The notes under the pieces were generated by a model. The model had not been told where the DNA came from. It saw only the letters and a program-made list of their open reading frames with translations, and did not search any database. A stretch of DNA of 37,661 nucleotides from a virus (taxonomy: Duplodnaviria; Heunggongvirae; Uroviricota; Caudoviricetes), in the IMG/VR virus record IMGVR_UViG_3300012943_000386, positions 1 through 37,661 of that record; one strand, given 5' to 3'. Below, piece by piece: positions 1 to 19,731 of this stretch. Within the stretch, counting starts at the first letter, position 1; every line of letters begins with the position of its first letter. The translations under genes and the position numbers were made by a program.

Positions 1-93
1 ACGCTCGTAGGCCAGTTCCCTCTTGTATACCACGTATCGTAGGAACCCTCTATTACGGAGGGCGGGGTTGACGCTGCTTAACTGGCTATTGCG

Positions 94-378
94 TCATGTC
101 TTGAAGATGCTGTCGAGCCACCAATGTGGAAACTTTGGGTCTTCGTAGAGCTCAAACTTGAACAGCGTGCGCTCTTCTATTCCCTCTTTCCACATTGCAA
201 CGTTTACTGAGAGCCACTTCTTGCCGTGGGCAAATCCGTTTTTCTCGCTGATCGGCAACCCTAAGCTTTCATGGTTGAACATCTCGACCAGCATTTCATC
301 GCTGTAATCAAAGAGGTGTTCCCAATCTCTGCCGAAGACGCGATACACGCTGCACATTCGCCTGAACTTTGCGCTCAC
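94..378 (-). CDS. hypothetical phage protein (94 aa)
   Basis: ORF track; same strand as neighbouring genes; no recognisable motif. Confidence 0.6.
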   Translation of the reverse strand: MSAKFRRMCSVYRVFGRDWEHLFDYSDEMLVEMFNHESLGLPISEKNGFAHGKKWLSVNVAMWKEGIEERTLFKFELYEDPKFPHWWLDSIFKT

Positions 379-596: not shown

Positions 597-917
597 TTAG
601 CCAGCTTTGTGCTTGCTGGCAGTTTCATGGGCCTTGGTAACGGAAGCTTTGTACTTCCCACCATCAAGCTCATCCCATGATACGGTATCTTTCTTCTTGT
701 GAAAGCCGAGTTCACCAGGAATATCGCCGGTGATCTCAAGTGGCCAGGCCTGCATCATGATTGCTGTCTTGTCGCCGCCAAGGTGAAGAACGTCTCCGTC
801 CTTGATGTTGTCGTCCGTCTGAGTGCGGTCATAGGCAGCTGAACCACCTTCTGCGCACTCCTTGCTGAAGTCATGAACCTTGATTGGTCGTGGTCCGGCG
901 ATTTCAAAGAGCTTCAT
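597..917 (-). CDS. hypothetical protein (106 aa)
   Basis: AGGAG RBS before ATG; ATAAATA motif at 939-945 upstream. Confidence 0.7.
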   Translation of the reverse strand: MKLFEIAGPRPIKVHDFSKECAEGGSAAYDRTQTDDNIKDGDVLHLGGDKTAIMMQAWPLEITGDIPGELGFHKKKDTVSWDELDGGKYKASVTKAHETASKHKAG

Positions 918-944
918 GTTGATCTCCTATAGAGATCATATTTA

Positions 945-1023
945 TGGTGGACCAAACCGGACTCGAACCGGCGATACTCCTCCATTTCTGGGGAGGGCGG
1001 TTTCCTTACATACCACCTGGCCC
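945..1023 (-). tRNA. atypical tRNA or tRNA-like RNA with 8-nt anticodon loop (CCAGAAAU); identity undetermined
   Basis: Acceptor GGGCCAG/UUGGUCC-A-CCA, T arm GCCGG-UUCGAGU-CCGGU, anticodon stem CCUCC/GGAGG; no U33. Confidence 0.6.
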
Positions 1024-1110
1024 GTAAACCACATCGGCGCGTTGCATGATCGGGCCACGCCGACGAATTGGTTCCCTGCGAGCTCCCGACCATCTCGCTT
1101 GAACTTGATT

Positions 1111-1195
1111 TGGTACCCCTAACAGGAGTCGAACCTGCACACCTTGCGGTACGAGGACCTAAACCTCGCGCGTCTACCAGCTTCGCCATAGGGGC
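1111..1195 (-). tRNA. tRNA-Leu(UAG)
   Basis: Cloverleaf GCCCCUA...UAGGGGU-A-CCA, anticodon loop UU-UAG-GU, long variable arm. Confidence 0.95.
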
Positions 1196-1310
1196 ATTGA
1201 AATGGTCCGCCAATTTTCGATTGCGGCATCCTCAAGGGACTTCGGCGGACTTTACCGCGACATCACCTACACTGCTTGCTTGAGTTGCCTCAAGTGGGGC
1301 TTGTCGTTTT

Positions 1311-1393
1311 TGGTGCCTCTGGAAGGGGTCGGACCTTCACGCGTTTCCGCGCTGCGCTTTAAGGGCAGTGTGTCTACATTTCACCACAGAGGC
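1311..1393 (-). tRNA. tRNA-Leu(UAA)
   Basis: GCCUCUG/CAGAGGC-A-CCA, loop CU-UAA-AG, variable arm CGCG-GAAA-CGCG; T loop reads UCCGACC (C at position 55). Confidence 0.88.
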
Positions 1394-1399
1394 ATAATT

Positions 1400-1500
1400 T
1401 GGTAGCGGATGCTGGAGTCGAACCAGCTATCGCCAGGTTATGAGCCTGGAATGATACGTGGTCTCTTTCGAGACAGTCACATCCGTTTCACTCGCCCGCT
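1400..1500 (-). tRNA. tRNA with CAU anticodon (Met or Ile2) carrying a 27-nt hairpin inserted in the D loop
   Basis: Anticodon arm CCAGG-CUCAUAA-CCUGG, T arm GCUGG-UUCGACU-CCAGC, 3' ACCA; 101 nt in total. Confidence 0.8.
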
Positions 1501-1508
1501 ACAGAAAA

Positions 1509-1617
1509 TGGCGCGAAAGGTTGGGATCGAACCAACGGCCGCTCGGCTTTTCGCGTGACGCCAGGGTAGGCTAATCACGTTACTTCCCCAAGCCCTCTAC
1601 CACTGAGGTACTTCCGC
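1509..1617 (-). tRNA. tRNA-like RNA with a 41-nt structured segment in place of the anticodon loop
   Basis: Canonical body: GCGGAAG/CUUUCGC-G-CCA, D arm CCUC-AGUGGUA-GAGG, T arm GUUGG-UUCGAUC-CCAAC; anticodon stem CUUGG/CCGAG encloses 1547-1587. Confidence 0.75.
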
Positions 1618-1750
1618 AAATCGTTCGGTTTCACCAGTAGCGCATTATCGAGGAGAACGTTAGGGCTACCGAAACCACTCCGCTCTTCTAATCTCGTGCA
1701 CTTGCTGATGGGTTCCTACGCTAAGCGCTTCACGCTTTGGTGGAATTGGA

Positions 1751-1816
1751 TTGACAACAAAGGGGTTGGGAACGGATGGATCGAATGCATGATAACCATT
1801 CCCGATCGGTTGTCAA
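1751..1816 (-). ncRNA. stem-bulge small RNA, copy A (UUAUC motif)
   Basis: UUGACAAC-CG...GGGAAUGG-UUAUC-loop-CAU-CCGUUCCC-pyrimidine-rich bulge-GUUGUCAA; homologous to 1918-1991 and 2353-2416. Confidence 0.7.
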
Positions 1817-1825
1817 ATTTGAAAC

Positions 1826-1910
1826 TGGTGCCCTCGAGAGGACTCGAACCTCCACGCCTTTCGACTCTAGCACCTCAAGCTAGCGCGTCTACCAATTTCG
1901 CCACGAGGGC
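1826..1910 (-). tRNA. tRNA-Leu(GAG)
   Basis: GCCCUCG/CGAGGGC-A-CCA, loop UU-GAG-GU, long variable arm. Confidence 0.95.
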
Positions 1911-1917
1911 AAATCAA

Positions 1918-1991
1918 GAGAACAAAAATGAAGGACGGTGTTTTGAACTGCTTGTTAAGCTGCTTGGATAACCATCACATCGCCGGTTCTC
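1918..1991 (-). ncRNA. stem-bulge small RNA, copy B (UUAUC motif)
   Basis: GAGAAC-CG...GAUGG-UUAUC-loop-CA-CCGUC...UUUUU-GUUCUC; outer stem sequence differs from copies A/C but still pairs. Confidence 0.62.
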
Positions 1992-2003
1992 AAAACCATT
2001 CTA

Positions 2004-2219
2004 TCACGTAACAATCTCGCCAGCCATCTTTTGCTCATGCGCAAGCTGGGCGTCGAGAAGACGTTGATCTTCTGGAGAAAGGTTTCCAGCATTCGCCTTT
2101 AGGTAGGCGACGCGGGCGGCACAGCGCTCGAAGGCTTCCTTGAGAAGCTTATCGATGCGGTCGAGCAGAACGTGCGCCTCTTTGATGAGGGCAATTCGCT
2201 CTTCGTCCGAAAGTGCCAT
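2004..2219 (-). CDS. small helical hypothetical protein (71 aa, MALSDEER...) inside the tRNA array
   Basis: AGGAG RBS before ATG at 2219; the longer track ORF runs through tRNA-Gly, so its upstream extension is unlikely. Confidence 0.7.
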   Translation of the reverse strand: MALSDEERIALIKEAHVLLDRIDKLLKEAFERCAARVAYLKANAGNLSPEDQRLLDAQLAHEQKMAGEIVT

Positions 2220-2268
2220 GACATTCTCCTTAAAAGACAAACGGGCATATTTCAGCCCTAGACCAAAT

Positions 2269-2342
2269 TGGAGCGGGATGCGAGACTCGAACTCGCTTCG
2301 TTGGTGTGGAAGACCAAGGCACAGCCTATATACCAATCCCGC
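2269..2342 (-). tRNA. tRNA-Gly(UCC)
   Basis: GCGGGAU/AUCCCGC-U-CCA, anticodon arm UUGGU-CUUCCAC-ACCAA, U73. Confidence 0.93.
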
Positions 2343-2352
2343 ATGAAAAGGA

Positions 2353-2416
2353 TGACAACAAAAAGGAGCTGACGGATGTTTCTAACCAAAAGATAACCAT
2401 CAACGAACGGTTGTCA
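2353..2416 (-). ncRNA. stem-bulge small RNA, copy C (UUAUC motif)
   Basis: UGACAAC-CG-UUC-GUUGAUGG-UUAUC-loop-CAU-CCGUCAGC-UCCUUUUU-GUUGUCA. Confidence 0.7.
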
Positions 2417-2429
2417 AATCGAAAAGGAA

Positions 2430-2555
2430 GGCAGCGGCGGGGTTTGCACTCGCAACGCCTGTCAAGCGCGTTTCCCTGATACCCTCGTGGTTTGACAGCA
2501 CCACTACTCTTGTCAGGATAGAACCGGCATCGTTCACCGGCTCGCTAACACTGCC
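2430..2555 (-). ncRNA. 126-nt tRNA-like RNA with a potential kissing-loop interaction; no encoded CCA
   Basis: Acceptor-like GGCAGUG/CGCUGCC, D-like hairpin CCGGU/GCCGG, extended arm UCCUGA/UCAGGG, T-like arm GCGAG-UGCAAAC-CCCGC; loop CUGUCAA is complementary to loop UUGACAG. Confidence 0.6.
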
Positions 2556-2563
2556 ATTGAAAC

Positions 2564-2652
2564 TGGTGGGTATGGTAGGGATCGAACCTACTATGGCCGC
2601 AAGGCCGTCTGCTTTACAGGCAGATGTGACACTCCAACTTCACCGCATACCC
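2564..2652 (-). tRNA. tRNA-Tyr(GUA)
   Basis: GGGUAUG/CAUACCC-A-CCA, arm UCUGC-CUGUAAA-GCAGA, long variable arm. Confidence 0.92.
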
Positions 2653-2657
2653 AAAAC

Positions 2658-2743
2658 TGGTGGAGCCTCTTGGATTTGAACCAAGGTTGCCCGAAGGCGG
2701 CAGATTTACAGTCTGCTGGTTTAAGCCGCTCACCCAAAGCTCC
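2658..2743 (-). tRNA. tRNA-Tyr(GUA), second divergent copy
   Basis: GGAGCUU/AGGCUCC-A-CCA, arm GCAGA-CUGUAAA-UCUGC, long variable arm. Confidence 0.94.
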
Positions 2744-2760
2744 AAAGAAAAGCTGATTTG

Positions 2761-2874
2761 CTACGCTGGTTCAGCTCGAACCTCGATAGACCCACGACAG
2801 CGTCGTGAGCTCAAATTGTGCGCCGCATTTACCAGACCCACGAGTTGTGTGGGTCACCTCGTCGTGAGACGTAG
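2761..2874 (-). ncRNA. candidate structured RNA with an internal duplication
   Basis: Terminal CUACG/CGUAG pairing, hairpins at 2791-2809 and 2835-2855, AGACCCACGA and GTCGTGAG each occur twice; lies between tRNAs. Confidence 0.4.
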
Positions 2875-2895
2875 GAAGATCGACGCTTCTTGTAT

Positions 2896-2970
2896 TGGTG
2901 CACCCTGTAGGGATCGAACCTACGGCATCCCACTTGTAAGGAGGGCGCTCTACCGCTGAGCTAAGGGTGC
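2896..2970 (-). tRNA. tRNA-Val(UAC)
   Basis: GCACCCU/AGGGUGC-A-CCA, loop CU-UAC-AA. Confidence 0.96.
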
Positions 2971-3319
2971 ATGAACACTGTGAGAGCTCAACGCCTAGGC
3001 GGAGCTCATCACTAAAAATCGTACCAGGCTCGCACTCCTCCATCCTCAGGCTGGTCCACCGGATGGTCTCTTAGCGGTCCAGTTATTTGTTAGGTCGGGC
3101 TCATCGGCCTCATACCGAGCGGAACTCTTAACCGCTCTCTAAAACGAACTCGGGGAGCTTTTTGGCTCCCCGGGTATCAAAGTCTGGTTTTGTTTAGACT
3201 TTAAACCCGGGTCGTGCTTCCTGCACCGAGCAATACACTACCGGCCAGTGAGACTGGCGAATAGGAAATGCTTGTAGGTAGGGCTATGGAAGACATGACA
3301 TCCTCAGAATTGTGTACCG

Positions 3320-3327
3320 TATTTATA
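3320..3327 (-). promoter_or_regulatory. T4-type late promoter TATAAATA upstream of the tRNA array
   Basis: Exact match to the T4 late consensus, oriented toward the tRNA cluster. Confidence 0.6.
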
Positions 3328-3409
3328 CGGGGCCGTCAATCTTCGCAACGACCCTGCATCAATGTAGGGATAGATCTTATCACACCGGAATGATGATGTA
3401 AACTGACGC

Positions 3410-3415
3410 TAAATA
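3410..3415 (+). promoter_or_regulatory. putative late promoter TAAATA for the acyltransferase
   Basis: Lies 24 nt upstream of ATG 3440; the same motif precedes many genes in the window. Confidence 0.5.
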
Positions 3416-3439
3416 TCCAATCAGCATCTAAGGCGGATC

Positions 3440-4654
3440 ATGAAAACTCGAATTACGACGGAACAGGACTTCAGCGTCAAGCTGTGCGGTTTGGATTTCG
3501 TCGGAGGGTTCATTTACATCAGAAGCCTCGTGTATCTAAAGCATCATCTAGACGTTGACAAATTTGCCGCTGCCATCTCTACAACCATTGCCTCCTATCC
3601 TTATTTGGCTGGTACCGTCGTAATTCGTGATGGCGCCCACTACATCGAGCCCGGCATCGGCGTAGAGTTTGAGTATGATGACGTCGATGTGCCTTGCCCG
3701 CCCGTTGGGCTGAATATCCCCGTGCGCACAGAGCTCCTGCCGAAAAGTGGGTGGCCTGTTGGTGGTCCGCTCGTGTACATAAAGATTACGCGCTTCAATG
3801 ACGGAACCTGCGCTCTATCTCAATCAGTAGCGCACGTTGTTGGCGATGCCGTGAGCTGTAGGTTATGGTCAAACCTGTTGATGAAGAACTATGTGAGTGA
3901 TGAACCATTTTTATCAGAACCAGACATTCGGCGCCTGTCTACGTTTGAACCACTTGAATATCCATCAAGCCAATTTTCTGCTGATAGGCCAGCGGTCGGG
4001 ATTGAGGATACAAAGCGCATCAACTTCTTCATTGATCATCCTCAGCTGGTAAAGCTTCGACGCACGACAAAACTGGCAGGCATCAGCGCGGTTGATATGA
4101 TCCGCGCGCTGATAGTCAAGACGTTCAATGACGTGTGCAAATCAGAGATTTCTGTCCAGATGGTTTACAACGCGCGGTATGTTCAGGGATCCGACATTCC
4201 AAAAGCATACACTGGAAACAGCAACCTGAAGTGGAAGTGCGACATACCAAAAAATCCAATGTCGATATTCGAAACCGCCTCCCTGCTGAAGGCACAGCCA
4301 ACGCCAACGGCACAGGATGTCAAGCGCGAGATAGCGCTGATACAGAAAAAATATGAAGAGAACGGGCTGATGTTCAACGGTGGCATCATTGGCGCAACAT
4401 CTCAGCAGTCCGATAAGTCAACGCTGACCATCAACATTGCGACGGTGGCATCATTGGCGTTGAACGATGAGGTTTTGCATCGTGAGCTGCTGATATTGGT
4501 ACCGGAAAAATTTCCATTCAACCTGGCATGTGTCTTCAGCATCATGGATGCGAGCAACAGGGCATCGTTGATAATACCAATTATCCTTGACGTAGAGATA
4601 GTTGATGAGTTTGAGCGGCGGTTTAGCGCTGCGCTCAGCTCGCTTGGGGTTTAG
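3440..4654 (+). CDS. CoA-dependent acyltransferase (BAHD/transferase or condensation-like fold)
   Basis: HXXXD motif VAHVVGDAVS; N-terminal pattern ...YPYLAGTV...; 404 aa; no DFGWG motif seen. Confidence 0.72.
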   Translation: MKTRITTEQDFSVKLCGLDFVGGFIYIRSLVYLKHHLDVDKFAAAISTTIASYPYLAGTVVIRDGAHYIEPGIGVEFEYDDVDVPCPPVGLNIPVRTELLPKSGWPVGGPLVYIKITRFNDGTCALSQSVAHVVGDAVSCRLWSNLLMKNYVSDEPFLSEPDIRRLSTFEPLEYPSSQFSADRPAVGIEDTKRINFFIDHPQLVKLRRTTKLAGISAVDMIRALIVKTFNDVCKSEISVQMVYNARYVQGSDIPKAYTGNSNLKWKCDIPKNPMSIFETASLLKAQPTPTAQDVKREIALIQKKYEENGLMFNGGIIGATSQQSDKSTLTINIATVASLALNDEVLHRELLILVPEKFPFNLACVFSIMDASNRASLIIPIILDVEIVDEFERRFSAALSSLGV

Positions 4655-5666
4655 TTCCACCGACCAGCATCATGCCGCCCGTAGTGGCGCTGAACTGGAT
4701 ATCCTTAAATCCTACTAGAAGCAAAAGCTCTTCCAGCTCACGCTTAGTTCTTTGCTTGCCGCCGGCCAGGGCCATGGTAAGATTGAACAGCGCGGTCAAC
4801 ATCGGCCCACTTTTGTCGTCGTTCCAGGTGTGCTCATGAAGCCAAATCTTCCCACCTGCTTCAAGGTGTTGATACGCCTCATAGCAGATCAGCGAGCACG
4901 CCCTATCATCAAAGCCGTGCAAGAAATTTCCAATGAAGACTGTGTCAAACTTACCGAGAACCCATGGAACCTTGAACGCGTCGAGTGGGCATAGTGAGAT
5001 TTTATCACCTACTCCAGCAGCCTCAATGAATGGAGCGATGTTTGGGAACGCCGACGGTAGCTCAGCCAAAACAACGCTGATCTCTGGGTATTTGAGAACA
5101 AGTGGGATTGAAAACACACCTGAACCACCAGCCAGATCCAGCACATTTTTAGAACCAGCGAATAGACCGCTGTTTACAGCAGCAAGGTTGGCTGGTAAGT
5201 TGCGCACCTGCTGATTTAGCAGCCGCTCATGAGTGCCAAAGTTCAGCGGCGCGAACTGTGGTAGCGAATACACATCTGGTATTGGCTTTTTCAAAAAGTA
5301 TGGCGGAATTGGATCAGTTAGATACAGCTCATCACCAATGTAGAATGGGCTTGAGGCCGAGATGTAGTCACGCGCGAGTGGCGTTGCCACATATCTTCCG
5401 TCAACGTGTACGGCTATTCCTGCAGCACAGAGAATACCTAGAAGTCCTCTAATGGCACCCAGGTTCAGGTCAGTGCGCATCATGATGTCTTCTGGCATCA
5501 CGGGCCTGTCGAGCAGCGCGGCAGTGACACCGTGATCTATGCTCCATTTGACATACTGCGCGATGGCGCGCTCGATTGGGAACAGGCGAATGCCAATGGC
5601 ATTCAGTAGCTCATTTATGTCTGTCGATGGCGGTGTCAGGGCGCGCCACTGCTCAGCGTCCATCAT
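4635..5666 (-). CDS. SAM-dependent O-methyltransferase, family 2, with N-terminal dimerisation wHTH
   Basis: VLDLAGGSG, FIGNFLHGFDD, GGKQRT motifs; start placed at 5666 by ATGA coupling to the upstream stop. Confidence 0.85.
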   Translation of the reverse strand: MMDAEQWRALTPPSTDINELLNAIGIRLFPIERAIAQYVKWSIDHGVTAALLDRPVMPEDIMMRTDLNLGAIRGLLGILCAAGIAVHVDGRYVATPLARDYISASSPFYIGDELYLTDPIPPYFLKKPIPDVYSLPQFAPLNFGTHERLLNQQVRNLPANLAAVNSGLFAGSKNVLDLAGGSGVFSIPLVLKYPEISVVLAELPSAFPNIAPFIEAAGVGDKISLCPLDAFKVPWVLGKFDTVFIGNFLHGFDDRACSLICYEAYQHLEAGGKIWLHEHTWNDDKSGPMLTALFNLTMALAGGKQRTKRELEELLLLVGFKDIQFSATTGGMMLVGGTKPQAS

Positions 5667-6388: not shown

Positions 6389-7613
6389 TTTTCAGTGCCC
6401 TGCTTGCAGCATAGAAACAGGCGGCGGCCATGGTGTATCCAAACGCATAGATGCCGAGGATGGAATATCCAAGAGCGGCTGGACCGACCAGCGGTGTGAA
6501 GACGTCGCTGAAATAACCAACGATGATTGGGCCGAGTGAAAGACCAATGAGGTTCGTTACCAACACGTGGCTAGCTTGTCCCATGGCCCTTCTGTCCGGA
6601 CCAACGGCGCGCTGTTCGATGTTTGTCACAATACCGATGTTCATGTGCATCGACACGATGATGAAGCTGAGCGCCGCGATAGCAATAGGGAAACTGCCAG
6701 CAGTAAACATCAACACCGCGAATGGAATTACGCCAAGCACTGAAGCAATAGACACCCAAAGTCTGGCCTTATCACCAAGCTTTGTTACTAGCTTCTCAGC
6801 CATCCAAGTACCAGATAGAACGCCAACCATGCCACCGATACCATACATCAAACCCATTAGAAGACCGGCACTGGTGGTGCTGACCTCATGTACGCGCATA
6901 AAGTAGGATGCCATCCACATGCCGGAACCTGTTGCAGCCATCACGGTGAAAGCTGAGGCAGCTATTGTCCAGCAAAAATCCTTCTTCTTCCAAAGCTCCT
7001 TCACAGTCGTAAGAAATGGTTCCCTTGCAGCAGTGCTTTCACGTGGTGGTTCTTTGATCGTGAACTTTACGAGCAGCGTTAGTAGAAGTCCCGGGATACC
7101 AACAGCCAAGAAGGCGGCGCGCCACCCATAGTTGGCGCTAATCCAACCACCAAGCACGAACGAAACTAGAACCCCGAGTGGAGTAGTCGATGCGAGAATT
7201 GAATAGACCTTAGCGCGTTTTTCCGGTGGGAAATACTCTGATGCGATGGAGACTGAGCTTGGATAAGCACCAGCTTCACCTATACCTACACCAATTCTTG
7301 ACAAGAAAAAGGTGAAGAAGCCCGTCACTAGACCACAGGCGGCCGTCATGGTGCTCCAAAGACCCAGACACACGCTCATGATGGTTGTTCTATTCTTCCT
7401 ATCGAGCAGATACGCTATTGGAATACCCATCAGCGAATAGAAAAGAGAGAATGACAGGCCAGAGATCATTCCGAGCTGCGTGTCTGAGAACCCGAATTCA
7501 GCCTTGATCCCCGGAAAGAGGACCGAAATGATCTGCAGGTCGACCATTCTGAGCAGCATGACAAGCCACAGCACGGCCAAGACATAGTAGCTGTATAAAA
7601 GTTTGTTCTTCAT
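6372..7613 (-). CDS. MFS transporter (spinster-like, about 12 TM helices)
   Basis: YLLDRKNR motif A variant, RIGVGIGEAG, repeated hydrophobic segments. Confidence 0.92.
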   Translation of the reverse strand: MKNKLLYSYYVLAVLWLVMLLRMVDLQIISVLFPGIKAEFGFSDTQLGMISGLSFSLFYSLMGIPIAYLLDRKNRTTIMSVCLGLWSTMTAACGLVTGFFTFFLSRIGVGIGEAGAYPSSVSIASEYFPPEKRAKVYSILASTTPLGVLVSFVLGGWISANYGWRAAFLAVGIPGLLLTLLVKFTIKEPPRESTAAREPFLTTVKELWKKKDFCWTIAASAFTVMAATGSGMWMASYFMRVHEVSTTSAGLLMGLMYGIGGMVGVLSGTWMAEKLVTKLGDKARLWVSIASVLGVIPFAVLMFTAGSFPIAIAALSFIIVSMHMNIGIVTNIEQRAVGPDRRAMGQASHVLVTNLIGLSLGPIIVGYFSDVFTPLVGPAALGYSILGIYAFGYTMAAACFYAASRALKSGTAS

Positions 7614-19111: not shown

Positions 19112-19363
19112 TCAGGTTTCAGGGTTGGATTTTGGCTGAGCTGCTCGCTTAAGCACGTCGCGAAGATCTGGAATGCAGCCAGCGTCCATGAGAAGATTGA
19201 CGTGCATCTGAGTAAGCAGAACTGGCGTATCGTCGATGAGAATACCGAGCTTGTTGAACGCCCACAGCTGAGCCTTCTTGATGTCTACCACACCATTTTG
19301 ATCGGCGAAGTTGTAGTAGAGGAGAAGGAGATCTAGCTCTAGCTGGGTCGGTAGTTGTGCCAT
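19112..19363 (-). CDS. hypothetical protein (83 aa)
   Basis: GAGGGAG RBS before MAQLPTQ. Confidence 0.55.
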   Translation of the reverse strand: MAQLPTQLELDLLLLYYNFADQNGVVDIKKAQLWAFNKLGILIDDTPVLLTQMHVNLLMDAGCIPDLRDVLKRAAQPKSNPET

Positions 19364-19399
19364 GCTCCCTCGGTTGAAGCGGGCTTGTGGGCCAAAAGC

Positions 19400-19715
19400 A
19401 CCCACAAGCCCTAACCGTTATTTTACAAGGTGGTTTAGACCCCGCATGGTTCACGCCGCTAGGCGGAGCTCCATGTAGTTATCGTCGTTAGCAGTTATGC
19501 TATTGCTTCATTTACGCCGATCGCCTGGCGTGTCGCGTCCCGCATCTCCGCAGCCCTGTCGAAACCTGTCACCCCCGTAGAAGTGGTGCGCTAACACCAC
19601 TTTGAAATTTGGTGGAGGTGGGGGTATTGAAACCCCGTCCAAAGCCCTTCAAGTTAGTCCGTATTACGACAATGAAACCATCATATCATGAACCCGTCTC
19701 CGAGTACACGATCAT
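19400..19715 (-). ncRNA. ssrA: circularly permuted (two-piece) tmRNA; tag ANDDNYMELRLAA
   Basis: T arm plus CACCUCC-A-CCA ends at 19610, 33-nt hairpin intervening segment, then GGGGGUGACAGGUUUCGAC from 19576 (G3-U70 pair); tag ORF 19451-19492; ATAAATA at 19722-19728; outer ends approximate. Confidence 0.9.
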
Positions 19716-19731
19716 CCTGGATATTTATGCA

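What the first reader, a model, noticed from the sequence alone, without database searches (positions are those of the whole stretch)
1751..2416. Three paralogous stem-bulge small RNAs with an invariant UUAUC, dispersed among the tRNAs
Copies at 1751-1816, 1918-1991 and 2353-2416 share one architecture: outer stem ending AAC, then CG, an inner stem ending AUGG, a loop starting with UUAUC and ending CA(U), CCGU, a U-rich bulge, and the outer stem 3' strand. Stems covary: GGGAAUGG/CCGUUCCC versus GUUGAUGG/CCGUCAGC, and GACAAC/GUUGUC versus GAGAAC/GUUCUC. Loop length varies. This layout resembles metazoan Y RNAs and nematode sbRNAs, which also have UUAUC at the loop start, but the Ro60-binding GGUCCGA is absent and no Ro60/Rsr gene is in the window. 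I do not recognise it as a described phage RNA family.
Basis: partly seen in the sequence, partly recalled or inferred. Interest (0 to 1): 0.8.

Follow-up and report, generated by a model that had tools for sequence, protein, structure and literature searches.

The report
Minimal Ro60 partner RNAs among phage tRNAs

Summary
Three about 68-80 nt elements lie on the minus (tRNA) strand at 1750-1817, 1915-1994 and 2351-2418. They share an outer stem, an unpaired CG, an inner stem ending in GG, an invariant UUAUC, a variable loop, a U-rich bulge and the closing strand. Both stems covary strongly.

The same "handle" occurs about 10 times in each of two complete relatives (336 and 358 kb). Both encode a true Ro60 (TROVE plus Ro60 vWA domains), and each has one copy just upstream of that gene. 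Across 62 phage Ro60 loci, 40 of 40 model hits lie on the Ro60 strand and 36 of them lie within 1 kb upstream. A model built only from those Ro60-adjacent RNAs finds exactly the three window copies and nothing else in the window.

Sister copies carry an inside-out tRNA and align to Rfam YrlA. The window copies have the handle only, like YrlB/Yrn2-type hairpin Y RNAs.

Ro60 binding, expression and processing are inferred, not shown. The window's own 101-kb fragment (about 25% of the genome) holds no Ro60 gene.

Earlier notes of this scan describe the same kind of Ro60 handle-RNA families in other giant phages. My verdict is a new member of a known kind, of moderate interest.

The parts
1750..1817 (-). 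Copy 1, a minimal Y RNA-like element. Outer stem 1816-1809 with 1758-1751; unpaired CG 1808-1807; inner stem 1803-1796 with 1775-1768; UUAUC 1795-1791; 15-nt loop; 9-nt pyrimidine-rich bulge 1767-1759.
   Evidence: Sequence, fold, R1 71.9 bits, R2 (built from Ro60-adjacent RNAs only) 54.3 bits, E 2.4e-12.
1915..1994 (-). Copy 2. The outer stem has G for C at one position and the compensating change opposite. UUAUC is at 1971-1967. The loop is longer (about 28 nt) and nearly identical in the G002 ortholog.
   Evidence: R1 47.3 bits; R2 28.2 bits, E 2.4e-5.
2351..2418 (-). Copy 3. UUAUC is at 2396-2392. The loop is identical in the G002 ortholog, while the inner stem differs from it by a compensatory pair change.
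   Evidence: R1 69.6 bits; R2 44.9 bits, E 8.2e-10.
1826..1910 (-). tRNA-Leu(GAG). Copy 2 ends 4 nt before its 5' end, and copy 1 starts 8 nt after its 3' end. It is the likely source of the processing cuts that free the small RNAs.
   Evidence: ARAGORN, Rfam tRNA 56.3 bits. Processing is inferred.
2269..2342 (-). tRNA-Gly(UCC). Copy 3 ends 8 nt before its 5' end.
   Evidence: ARAGORN, Rfam tRNA 48.9 bits.

Best explanation
The three elements are minimal, handle-only Y RNAs, the small noncoding partners of a phage-encoded Ro60 (Rsr/TROVE) ring protein.

Shown here:
- They share a conserved, covarying two-helix handle: outer stem, CG-containing internal loop opposite a U-rich bulge, inner stem, then GG-UUAUC.
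- The same handle lies immediately upstream of Ro60 genes in many related phages.
- The same handle forms the stem of YrlA-type tRNA-mimic Y RNAs.

Inferred:
- They are transcribed with the tRNA array and freed by the cuts that mature the flanking tRNAs: RNase P at the 5' end of the downstream tRNA and 3' trimming of the upstream tRNA.
- Ro60, whose gene probably lies in the missing three quarters of this genome, binds the internal-loop region of the handle on its outer surface, as in the solved frog Ro60-Y RNA complex.
- The RNA then gates Ro60's central cavity. Through its short, sequence-conserved loop it may also direct Ro60 to a partner such as host PNPase or a tRNA-processing or repair enzyme, within a battery of about ten Y RNAs with different heads.
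For: 1. Structure. Both stems covary and the fold is strand-specific through G-U pairs.

2. Link to Ro60.
- Both complete relatives that carry the handle encode a TROVE plus vWA_Ro60 protein, each with a handle copy about 600-750 nt upstream of the Ro60 match on the same strand.
- In 62 phage Ro60 loci, all 40 R1 hits lie on the Ro60 strand. 36 end within 1 kb upstream of the Ro60 match, and 33 loci have a hit.
- The cultured Sinorhizobium jumbo phage Phosso encodes Ro60. It has handle copies that exactly fill unannotated gaps between tRNA genes, and one copy 1.4 kb upstream of Ro60.

3. Membership. Model R2, built only from the Ro60-adjacent set, finds exactly the three window copies (54.3, 44.9 and 28.2 bits) and nothing else in 37.7 kb at E<=10.

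4. Continuity with YrlA.
- Handle-bearing sister RNAs align to Rfam YrlA: L036 25.9 bits over the tRNA-like core, L090 40.0 bits global, L097 44.7 bits global.
- For comparison, the published YrlA of mycobacteriophage ET08 scores 37.4 bits.
- The alignment places the handle's CCGAAU and UUAU on YrlA's CGAAUG and CUAC. These are the GNCGAA and YUAY features of Chen et al. 2014 (PMC4201824).

5. Hairpin Y RNAs without a tRNA-like domain are already known (YrlB, Yrn2; PMC4201824).
Against: - No Ro60 gene is found in the 101,661-base record that holds the window. In the closest complete relative, the orthologous copies lie about 60 kb from Ro60 across the circular junction. The window copies therefore fail the published 'within 4 kb of Ro60' criterion.
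- The 5' motif is degenerate in the window copies. Only CCG is kept, and the A's that follow it in YrlA are present in copy 1 only.
- No Rfam Y RNA family hits the window copies even at E<=10.
- A5, the training set for R2, was itself collected with R1, which was trained on the window copies. The membership test is therefore not fully independent, although the position of those hits beside Ro60 is.
Confidence: 0.8

Rival explanations
1. They are structured RNAs of the tRNA operon with a job independent of Ro60, for example punctuation or processing signals for the polycistronic tRNA precursor, or partners of another phage protein. On this reading the handle near Ro60 genes reflects shared ancestry, not shared function.
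For: The window copies and most copies in G001, G002 and Phosso sit in tRNA-sized slots between tRNA genes, far from Ro60. No Ro60 gene is in the held fragment.
Against: The conserved parts are the same in the Ro60-adjacent and the tRNA-array copies. All three genomes examined that are complete or nearly so and carry array copies also encode Ro60. Processing signals would not need an invariant UUAUC, or loops that stay the same while the stems change.
Confidence: 0.1
2. They are sigma-70-type promoters for the downstream tRNA genes: the outer-stem 5' strand acts as the -35 box and the start of the UUAUC region as the -10 box.
For: Copies 1 and 3 match the consensus at 11 of 12 and 10 of 12 positions with a 16-nt spacer. 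Each copy precedes a tRNA or tRNA-like gene.
Against: The -35-like hexamer is not conserved in the family. The outer stem takes at least a dozen other sequences, always with the compensating change on the 3' strand. The inner stem pairs the would-be spacer with sequence downstream of the would-be start, which only makes sense if the whole element is transcribed. An extra promoter role in this lineage is not excluded.
Confidence: 0.04
3. They are copies of a small mobile DNA repeat (MITE-like) with terminal inverted repeats that has spread in the tRNA region.
For: The elements are multi-copy and bounded by an inverted repeat.
Against: Copies within one genome are only about 60% alike, with compensatory rather than random changes. 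Orthologous copies stay in the same slots between two phages that are 78-90% identical. All copies have one orientation, that of the tRNAs or Ro60. G-U pairs make the fold strand-specific.
Confidence: 0.02

Closest known systems
Hairpin-type bacterial Y RNAs without a full tRNA-like domain: S. Typhimurium YrlB, M. smegmatis YrlB, D. radiodurans Yrn2 (Chen et al. 2014, PMC4201824)
   Same: These are small RNAs that form one long interrupted hairpin with a small loop. They carry the Ro60-site motif near the 5' end and coexist with a tRNA-mimic Y RNA in the same genome.
   Different: Those RNAs are encoded within about 2 kb of rsr, one per genome. The window copies are three of about ten paralogs. 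They sit between tRNA genes far from Ro60 and keep only CCG of the GNCGAA motif. Ro60 binding of the phage RNAs is untested.
YrlA (Rfam RF02553), the tRNA-mimic Y RNA of bacteria and mycobacteriophages
   Same: The handle is the same: terminal stem, CGA-type internal loop, upper stem, then YUAY at the start of the loop (alignment). Sister copies in related phages carry the inside-out T arm, closed acceptor-like hairpin and D arm.
   Different: The window copies have 15-28 nt loops and no tRNA-like domain, and they get no Rfam hit.
Thermus phage phiLo Ro60 with Yrl1 and Yrl2 (PMC12135203)
   Same: A phage-encoded Ro60 has stem-bulge-stem Y RNA-like partners carrying a CGAA motif, encoded upstream of the gene. 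Binding and a ternary complex with host PNPase were shown in vitro.
   Different: phiLo has two RNAs beside the gene. Here there is a family of about ten spread through tRNA arrays, with an invariant GG-UUAUC. I made no sequence comparison with Yrl1 or Yrl2.
Metazoan Y RNAs and nematode stem-bulge RNAs (PMC4726728; Rfam RF01656)
   Same: The layout is lower stem, bulge, upper stem, then UUAUC at the start of the loop. One Ro60-adjacent phage unit aligns end to end with the nematode model at 26.1 bits. It shares the CCG, GGUUAUC and ACUUG blocks.
   Different: That score is below the gathering score of 38. A second unit in the same locus scored 20.1 bits, but the family was not hit in nine other loci or on the window copies. 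Those RNAs are Pol III genes with a replication role in animals. Homology is possible but not shown.

Membership tests
Y RNA (Ro60-bound noncoding RNA) | Bound and stabilised by Ro60/Rsr | not testable with these tools
   Needs immunoprecipitation or gel shift. The complex predictor takes proteins only.
Y RNA (Ro60-bound noncoding RNA) | Encoded near a Ro60 gene on the same strand (within 4 kb in Chen et al. 2014) | tested here: not met
   Not met for the window copies. There is no TROVE match in the 101-kb record, and the orthologs in G002 lie about 60 kb from Ro60. Met for the family: all 40 hits are on the Ro60 strand and 36 lie within 1 kb upstream.
Y RNA (Ro60-bound noncoding RNA) | 5' and 3' ends pair into a stem interrupted by a conserved bulge or internal loop that carries the Ro60-site motif (GGUCCGA in animals, GNCGAA in bacteria) | tested here: inconclusive
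   The stem and internal loop are present and covary. Of the motif, only CCG is invariant. CCGA occurs in copy 1 and in most Ro60-adjacent members.
Y RNA (Ro60-bound noncoding RNA) | Same family as RNAs found beside Ro60 genes | tested here: met
   R2, built from the Ro60-adjacent set only, scores the three copies at 54.3, 44.9 and 28.2 bits, with no other hit in the window at E<=10.
YrlA (Rfam RF02553) | tRNA-like domain: T arm, closed acceptor-like stem-loop, D arm | tested here: not met
   The loops of the window copies are 15-28 nt with no T or D arm, and they get no RF02553 hit at E<=10. Sister copies elsewhere do have the domain.
YrlA (Rfam RF02553) | Score at or above the Rfam gathering score (69 bits) | tested here: not met
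   No phage member reaches it. The best scores are 44.7 (L097) and 40.0 (L090), and the published ET08 YrlA itself scores 37.4.
Nematode sbRNA / metazoan Y RNA | Match to the Rfam models (RF01656, Y_RNA) | tested here: not met
   The window copies get no hit at E<=10. One related phage unit scores 26.1 bits against a gathering score of 38. UUAUC at the start of the loop is shared (PMC4726728).
Sigma-70 promoter | -35 and -10 hexamers conserved among family members | tested here: not met
   Copies 1 and 3 match, but the -35 positions vary freely with compensating changes on the 3' strand across the family.

The most novel reading that the evidence does not exclude
The phage handle (CCG junction, upper stem, GG-UUAUC, and a closing strand ending in ACUUG or UUUG) may be a true homolog of the core of animal Y RNAs and nematode sbRNAs. 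On this reading, giant phages use it as a universal Ro60 docking module on a battery of about ten RNAs with different heads. These would include handle-only forms (this window), inside-out tRNAs, and complete CCA-ended tRNA bodies with the handle in place of the anticodon arm. Ro60 would thereby be steered to different tRNA-handling enzymes during infection, for tRNA quality control, repair, or evasion of host anticodon nucleases.
Probability: 0.25. Interest if true: 0.75.

Novelty: new member of a known kind. Interest (0 to 1): 0.5.

Why it matters
Ro60-Y RNA particles are well studied in animals because of lupus autoimmunity, but little studied in microbes, where one or two Y RNAs beside rsr is the textbook picture. 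This window adds a clean example of a different arrangement in giant phages. These phages carry many Y RNAs with one docking handle and different heads, packed into tRNA arrays and probably matured by the tRNA-processing enzymes. The minimal copies define which parts of the handle are indispensable: the CG internal loop, the U-rich bulge and GG-UUAUC. They are convenient substrates for binding and structural work. Annotators should also know that 'empty' tRNA-sized gaps in phage tRNA arrays can hold such RNAs, and that the Rfam YrlA model misses them.

Tried and rejected
- Rfam at gathering score, and at E<=10 on 900-3450, gave nothing on the three copies.
- BLASTN of the region against GenBank phages matched only tRNA genes; there is no close cultured relative.
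- The sigma-70 promoter reading was taken seriously because of the -35/-10-like match. I rejected it as the conserved function because the -35 positions covary with the 3' strand.
- The MITE reading was rejected (see rival explanations).
- Three of the eight exact-pattern hits in viral contigs (L003, L004, L007) lacked the 3' half of the fold. I set them aside as chance matches, probably in coding sequence.
- Model R1 found nothing in mycobacteriophage ET08. R2 gave only a weak hit just upstream of its Ro60 (18.3 bits).
- The resemblance to the nematode sbRNA family was not seen again in nine further Ro60 loci, so I treat it as a lead only.
- Complex prediction was not used because it does not take RNA.

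Full report
**What is in the window**

All eight tRNA genes of the window lie on the minus strand. On that strand the three elements (1817-1750, 1994-1915, 2418-2351) share one plan. In order, this is an outer stem ending in AAC, an unpaired CG, an inner stem of about 8 pairs ending in GG, and an invariant UUAUC. A variable loop of 15-28 nt follows, then the inner 3' strand starting with CC, a pyrimidine-rich bulge ending in UUU, and the outer 3' strand starting with GUU.

The nine-base core occurs three times against 0.14 expected by chance. Copy 2 ends 4 nt before tRNA-Leu(GAG), copy 1 starts 8 nt after that tRNA, and copy 3 ends 8 nt before tRNA-Gly(UCC). Rfam gives nothing for the three copies at its gathering scores or at E<=10.

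**The family outside the window**

An exact-pattern scan of viral contigs found the element in several uncultured phages. Among them are two complete or nearly complete jumbo genomes:
- G001: 336 kb, 98% complete.
- G002: 358 kb, with terminal repeats. It is collinear with the window at 78-90% identity.

The window's own record is a 101,661-base fragment, estimated 25% complete. A relaxed pattern gave 8-10 same-strand copies in each complete genome, against at most one for the reversed control pattern.

I built covariance model R1 from 13 short copies. It found 28 members in the loci I held, all on the tRNA strand.

The outer stem takes at least a dozen different sequences, each with the compensating change opposite. 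The measures on these 28 members were:
- 87.9% of cells pair, against 31-53% when the 3' partners are slid by 1-3 columns.
- 91 cells are compensatory, against 11-36 for the slid controls.
- 0 of 500 shuffles reach the observed values.

Frequent G-U pairs make the fold specific to the tRNA strand. The orthologs of copies 1 and 3 in G002 differ from the window copies by compensatory changes. The loops of copies 2 and 3 are nearly or fully unchanged.

**The link to Ro60**

One copy in G001 (L036 3285-3420) has a long loop that contains, in order, a T arm, a closed acceptor-like hairpin and a D arm. This is the inside-out tRNA order of bacterial YrlA. Rfam YrlA matches that core at 25.9 bits.

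Both complete genomes encode a protein with TROVE and Ro60-type vWA domains. Each has a short handle copy about 600-750 nt upstream of the Ro60 match on the same strand. The window's fragment has no TROVE match.

With an alignment of the two Ro60 proteins I fetched 62 phage Ro60 loci, each with up to 6 kb of flank on either side. R1 gave 40 hits in them:
- All 40 lie on the Ro60 strand.
- 36 end 1-1000 nt upstream of the Ro60 match.
- 33 loci have at least one hit.

On this set 88.9% of cells pair against 37-45% slid, with 180 compensatory cells against 23-50.

Model R2 was built from this Ro60-adjacent set alone. It finds exactly the three window copies (54.3, 44.9 and 28.2 bits) and nothing else in the window at E<=10. 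One caveat applies: the set was collected with R1, so only the position of its members beside Ro60 is independent evidence.

**Continuity with known Y RNAs**

In locus L090 at least eight units stand in tandem before Ro60. One of them aligns end to end with Rfam YrlA at 40.0 bits. A unit in L097 does so at 44.7 bits and carries the same handle. The published YrlA of mycobacteriophage ET08 scores only 37.4 bits, so the Rfam model is narrow and these scores are comparable with an accepted member.

The alignment places the handle's CCGAAU on YrlA's CGAAUG, and its UUAU on YrlA's CUAC. These are the GNCGAA and YUAY features that Chen et al. 2014 tie to Rsr recognition and to the start of the variable loop (PMC4201824).

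The same paper describes hairpin Y RNAs without a full tRNA domain (YrlB, Yrn2). These are the closest known forms to the window copies.

Phage Ro60 with Y RNA-like partners is established in two sources: mycobacteriophages, CcrColossus and Bacillus phage G (PMC4201824), and Thermus phage phiLo, where binding and a complex with host PNPase were shown in vitro (PMC12135203). A few jumbo phages are known to carry TROVE proteins (PMC7824862).

The cultured Sinorhizobium jumbo phage Phosso encodes Ro60. It has handle copies that exactly fill unannotated gaps between tRNA genes, plus one copy 1.4 kb upstream of Ro60.

**Resemblance to animal Y RNAs**

UUAUC at the start of the loop is a conserved feature of nematode sbRNAs and vertebrate Y RNAs (PMC4726728). 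One L090 unit aligns over its whole length with the nematode sbRNA model RF01656 at 26.1 bits, against a gathering score of 38. It shares the CCG, GGUUAUC and ACUUG blocks.

A second L090 unit scored 20.1 bits on the same model. The family was not hit in nine further loci or on the window copies. I treat it as a lead towards deep homology, not a result.

**Rivals**

Copies 1 and 3 match the sigma-70 consensus at 11 of 12 and 10 of 12 positions. The -35 positions are not conserved in the family, however, and they covary with the 3' strand. The inner stem also pairs the would-be spacer with sequence downstream of the would-be start. The conserved object is therefore an RNA that spans the whole element.

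A mobile repeat is unlikely for four reasons: the copies are diverged yet compensated, they keep their syntenic slots, they share one orientation, and the fold is strand-specific. A Ro60-independent role for the array copies cannot be excluded without experiments.

**Mechanism: shown and inferred**

Shown: the conserved fold, the strand, the family relation to Ro60-adjacent RNAs and to YrlA, and the co-occurrence with Ro60 in all three complete or nearly complete genomes examined that carry the handle.

Inferred from knowledge of Ro60-Y RNA particles:
- The RNAs are co-transcribed with the tRNAs and released by tRNA-maturing nucleases.
- Ro60 docks on the CG internal loop and its flanking pairs.
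- The RNA gates the Ro60 cavity or tethers it through its loop.

**Standing**

Earlier notes of this scan report the same kind of handle-RNA family with Ro60 in other giant phages. They mention minimal forms and tRNAs with a grafted handle. My own loci show the same independently.

The window's three RNAs are new members of the known Ro60-Y RNA kind. Their spread through tRNA arrays and their copy number are, as far as my literature searches went, not published.

Noticed in passing
L031 about 1095-1245 (-), L032 about 7140-7270 (-), L036 about 5200-5340 (-), L037 about 4100-4240 (-): Four complete tRNA bodies in related phages: a 7-bp acceptor stem that covaries between the four, a D arm, a T arm, a discriminator base and an encoded CCA. 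Their anticodon arm is replaced by the Y RNA handle in circularly permuted order. In three of the four the outer stem is closed by a tetraloop. This is the reverse topology of YrlA.
   Followed up: partly
L090 5090-5905 (+): A tandem array of at least eight handle-bearing units directly upstream of a phage Ro60 gene. It mixes minimal units, units with a T arm only, and units with a full inside-out tRNA.
   Followed up: partly
window 1512-1617 (-): A tRNA body (Rfam tRNA 44.6 bits) with an insertion of about 35-40 nt in the anticodon loop and no Y RNA handle.
   Followed up: no
window 1396-1500 (-), 945-1025 (-), 2430-2555 (-): Further tRNA-like stretches in the array that ARAGORN does not call. 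The first gets a weak tRNA-Sec hit of 18.5 bits. Unassigned spacers of 115-150 nt lie at 1196-1310, 1620-1745 and 2744-2895.
   Followed up: no
window 2004-2219 (-): A small open reading frame of about 71 codons with a good ribosome-binding site, inside the tRNA array between tRNA-Gly and copy 2. The stretch is conserved in G002 at about 85% nucleotide identity.
   Followed up: no
window 19360-19717 (-): A permuted (two-piece) tmRNA gene with tag peptide ANDDNYMELRLAA (ARAGORN; Rfam tmRNA_permuted 124.9 bits).
   Followed up: no
window 1-107 and G002 358338-358444: The first 107 bases of the window are 100% identical to the last 107 bases of G002 (part of its terminal repeat), although the next kilobase is only about 78% identical. 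This may be a shared conserved end sequence or an assembly effect.
   Followed up: no
L084 3625-3842 (+): A group I intron (Rfam 89.1 bits) about 2 kb downstream of a phage Ro60 gene.
   Followed up: no
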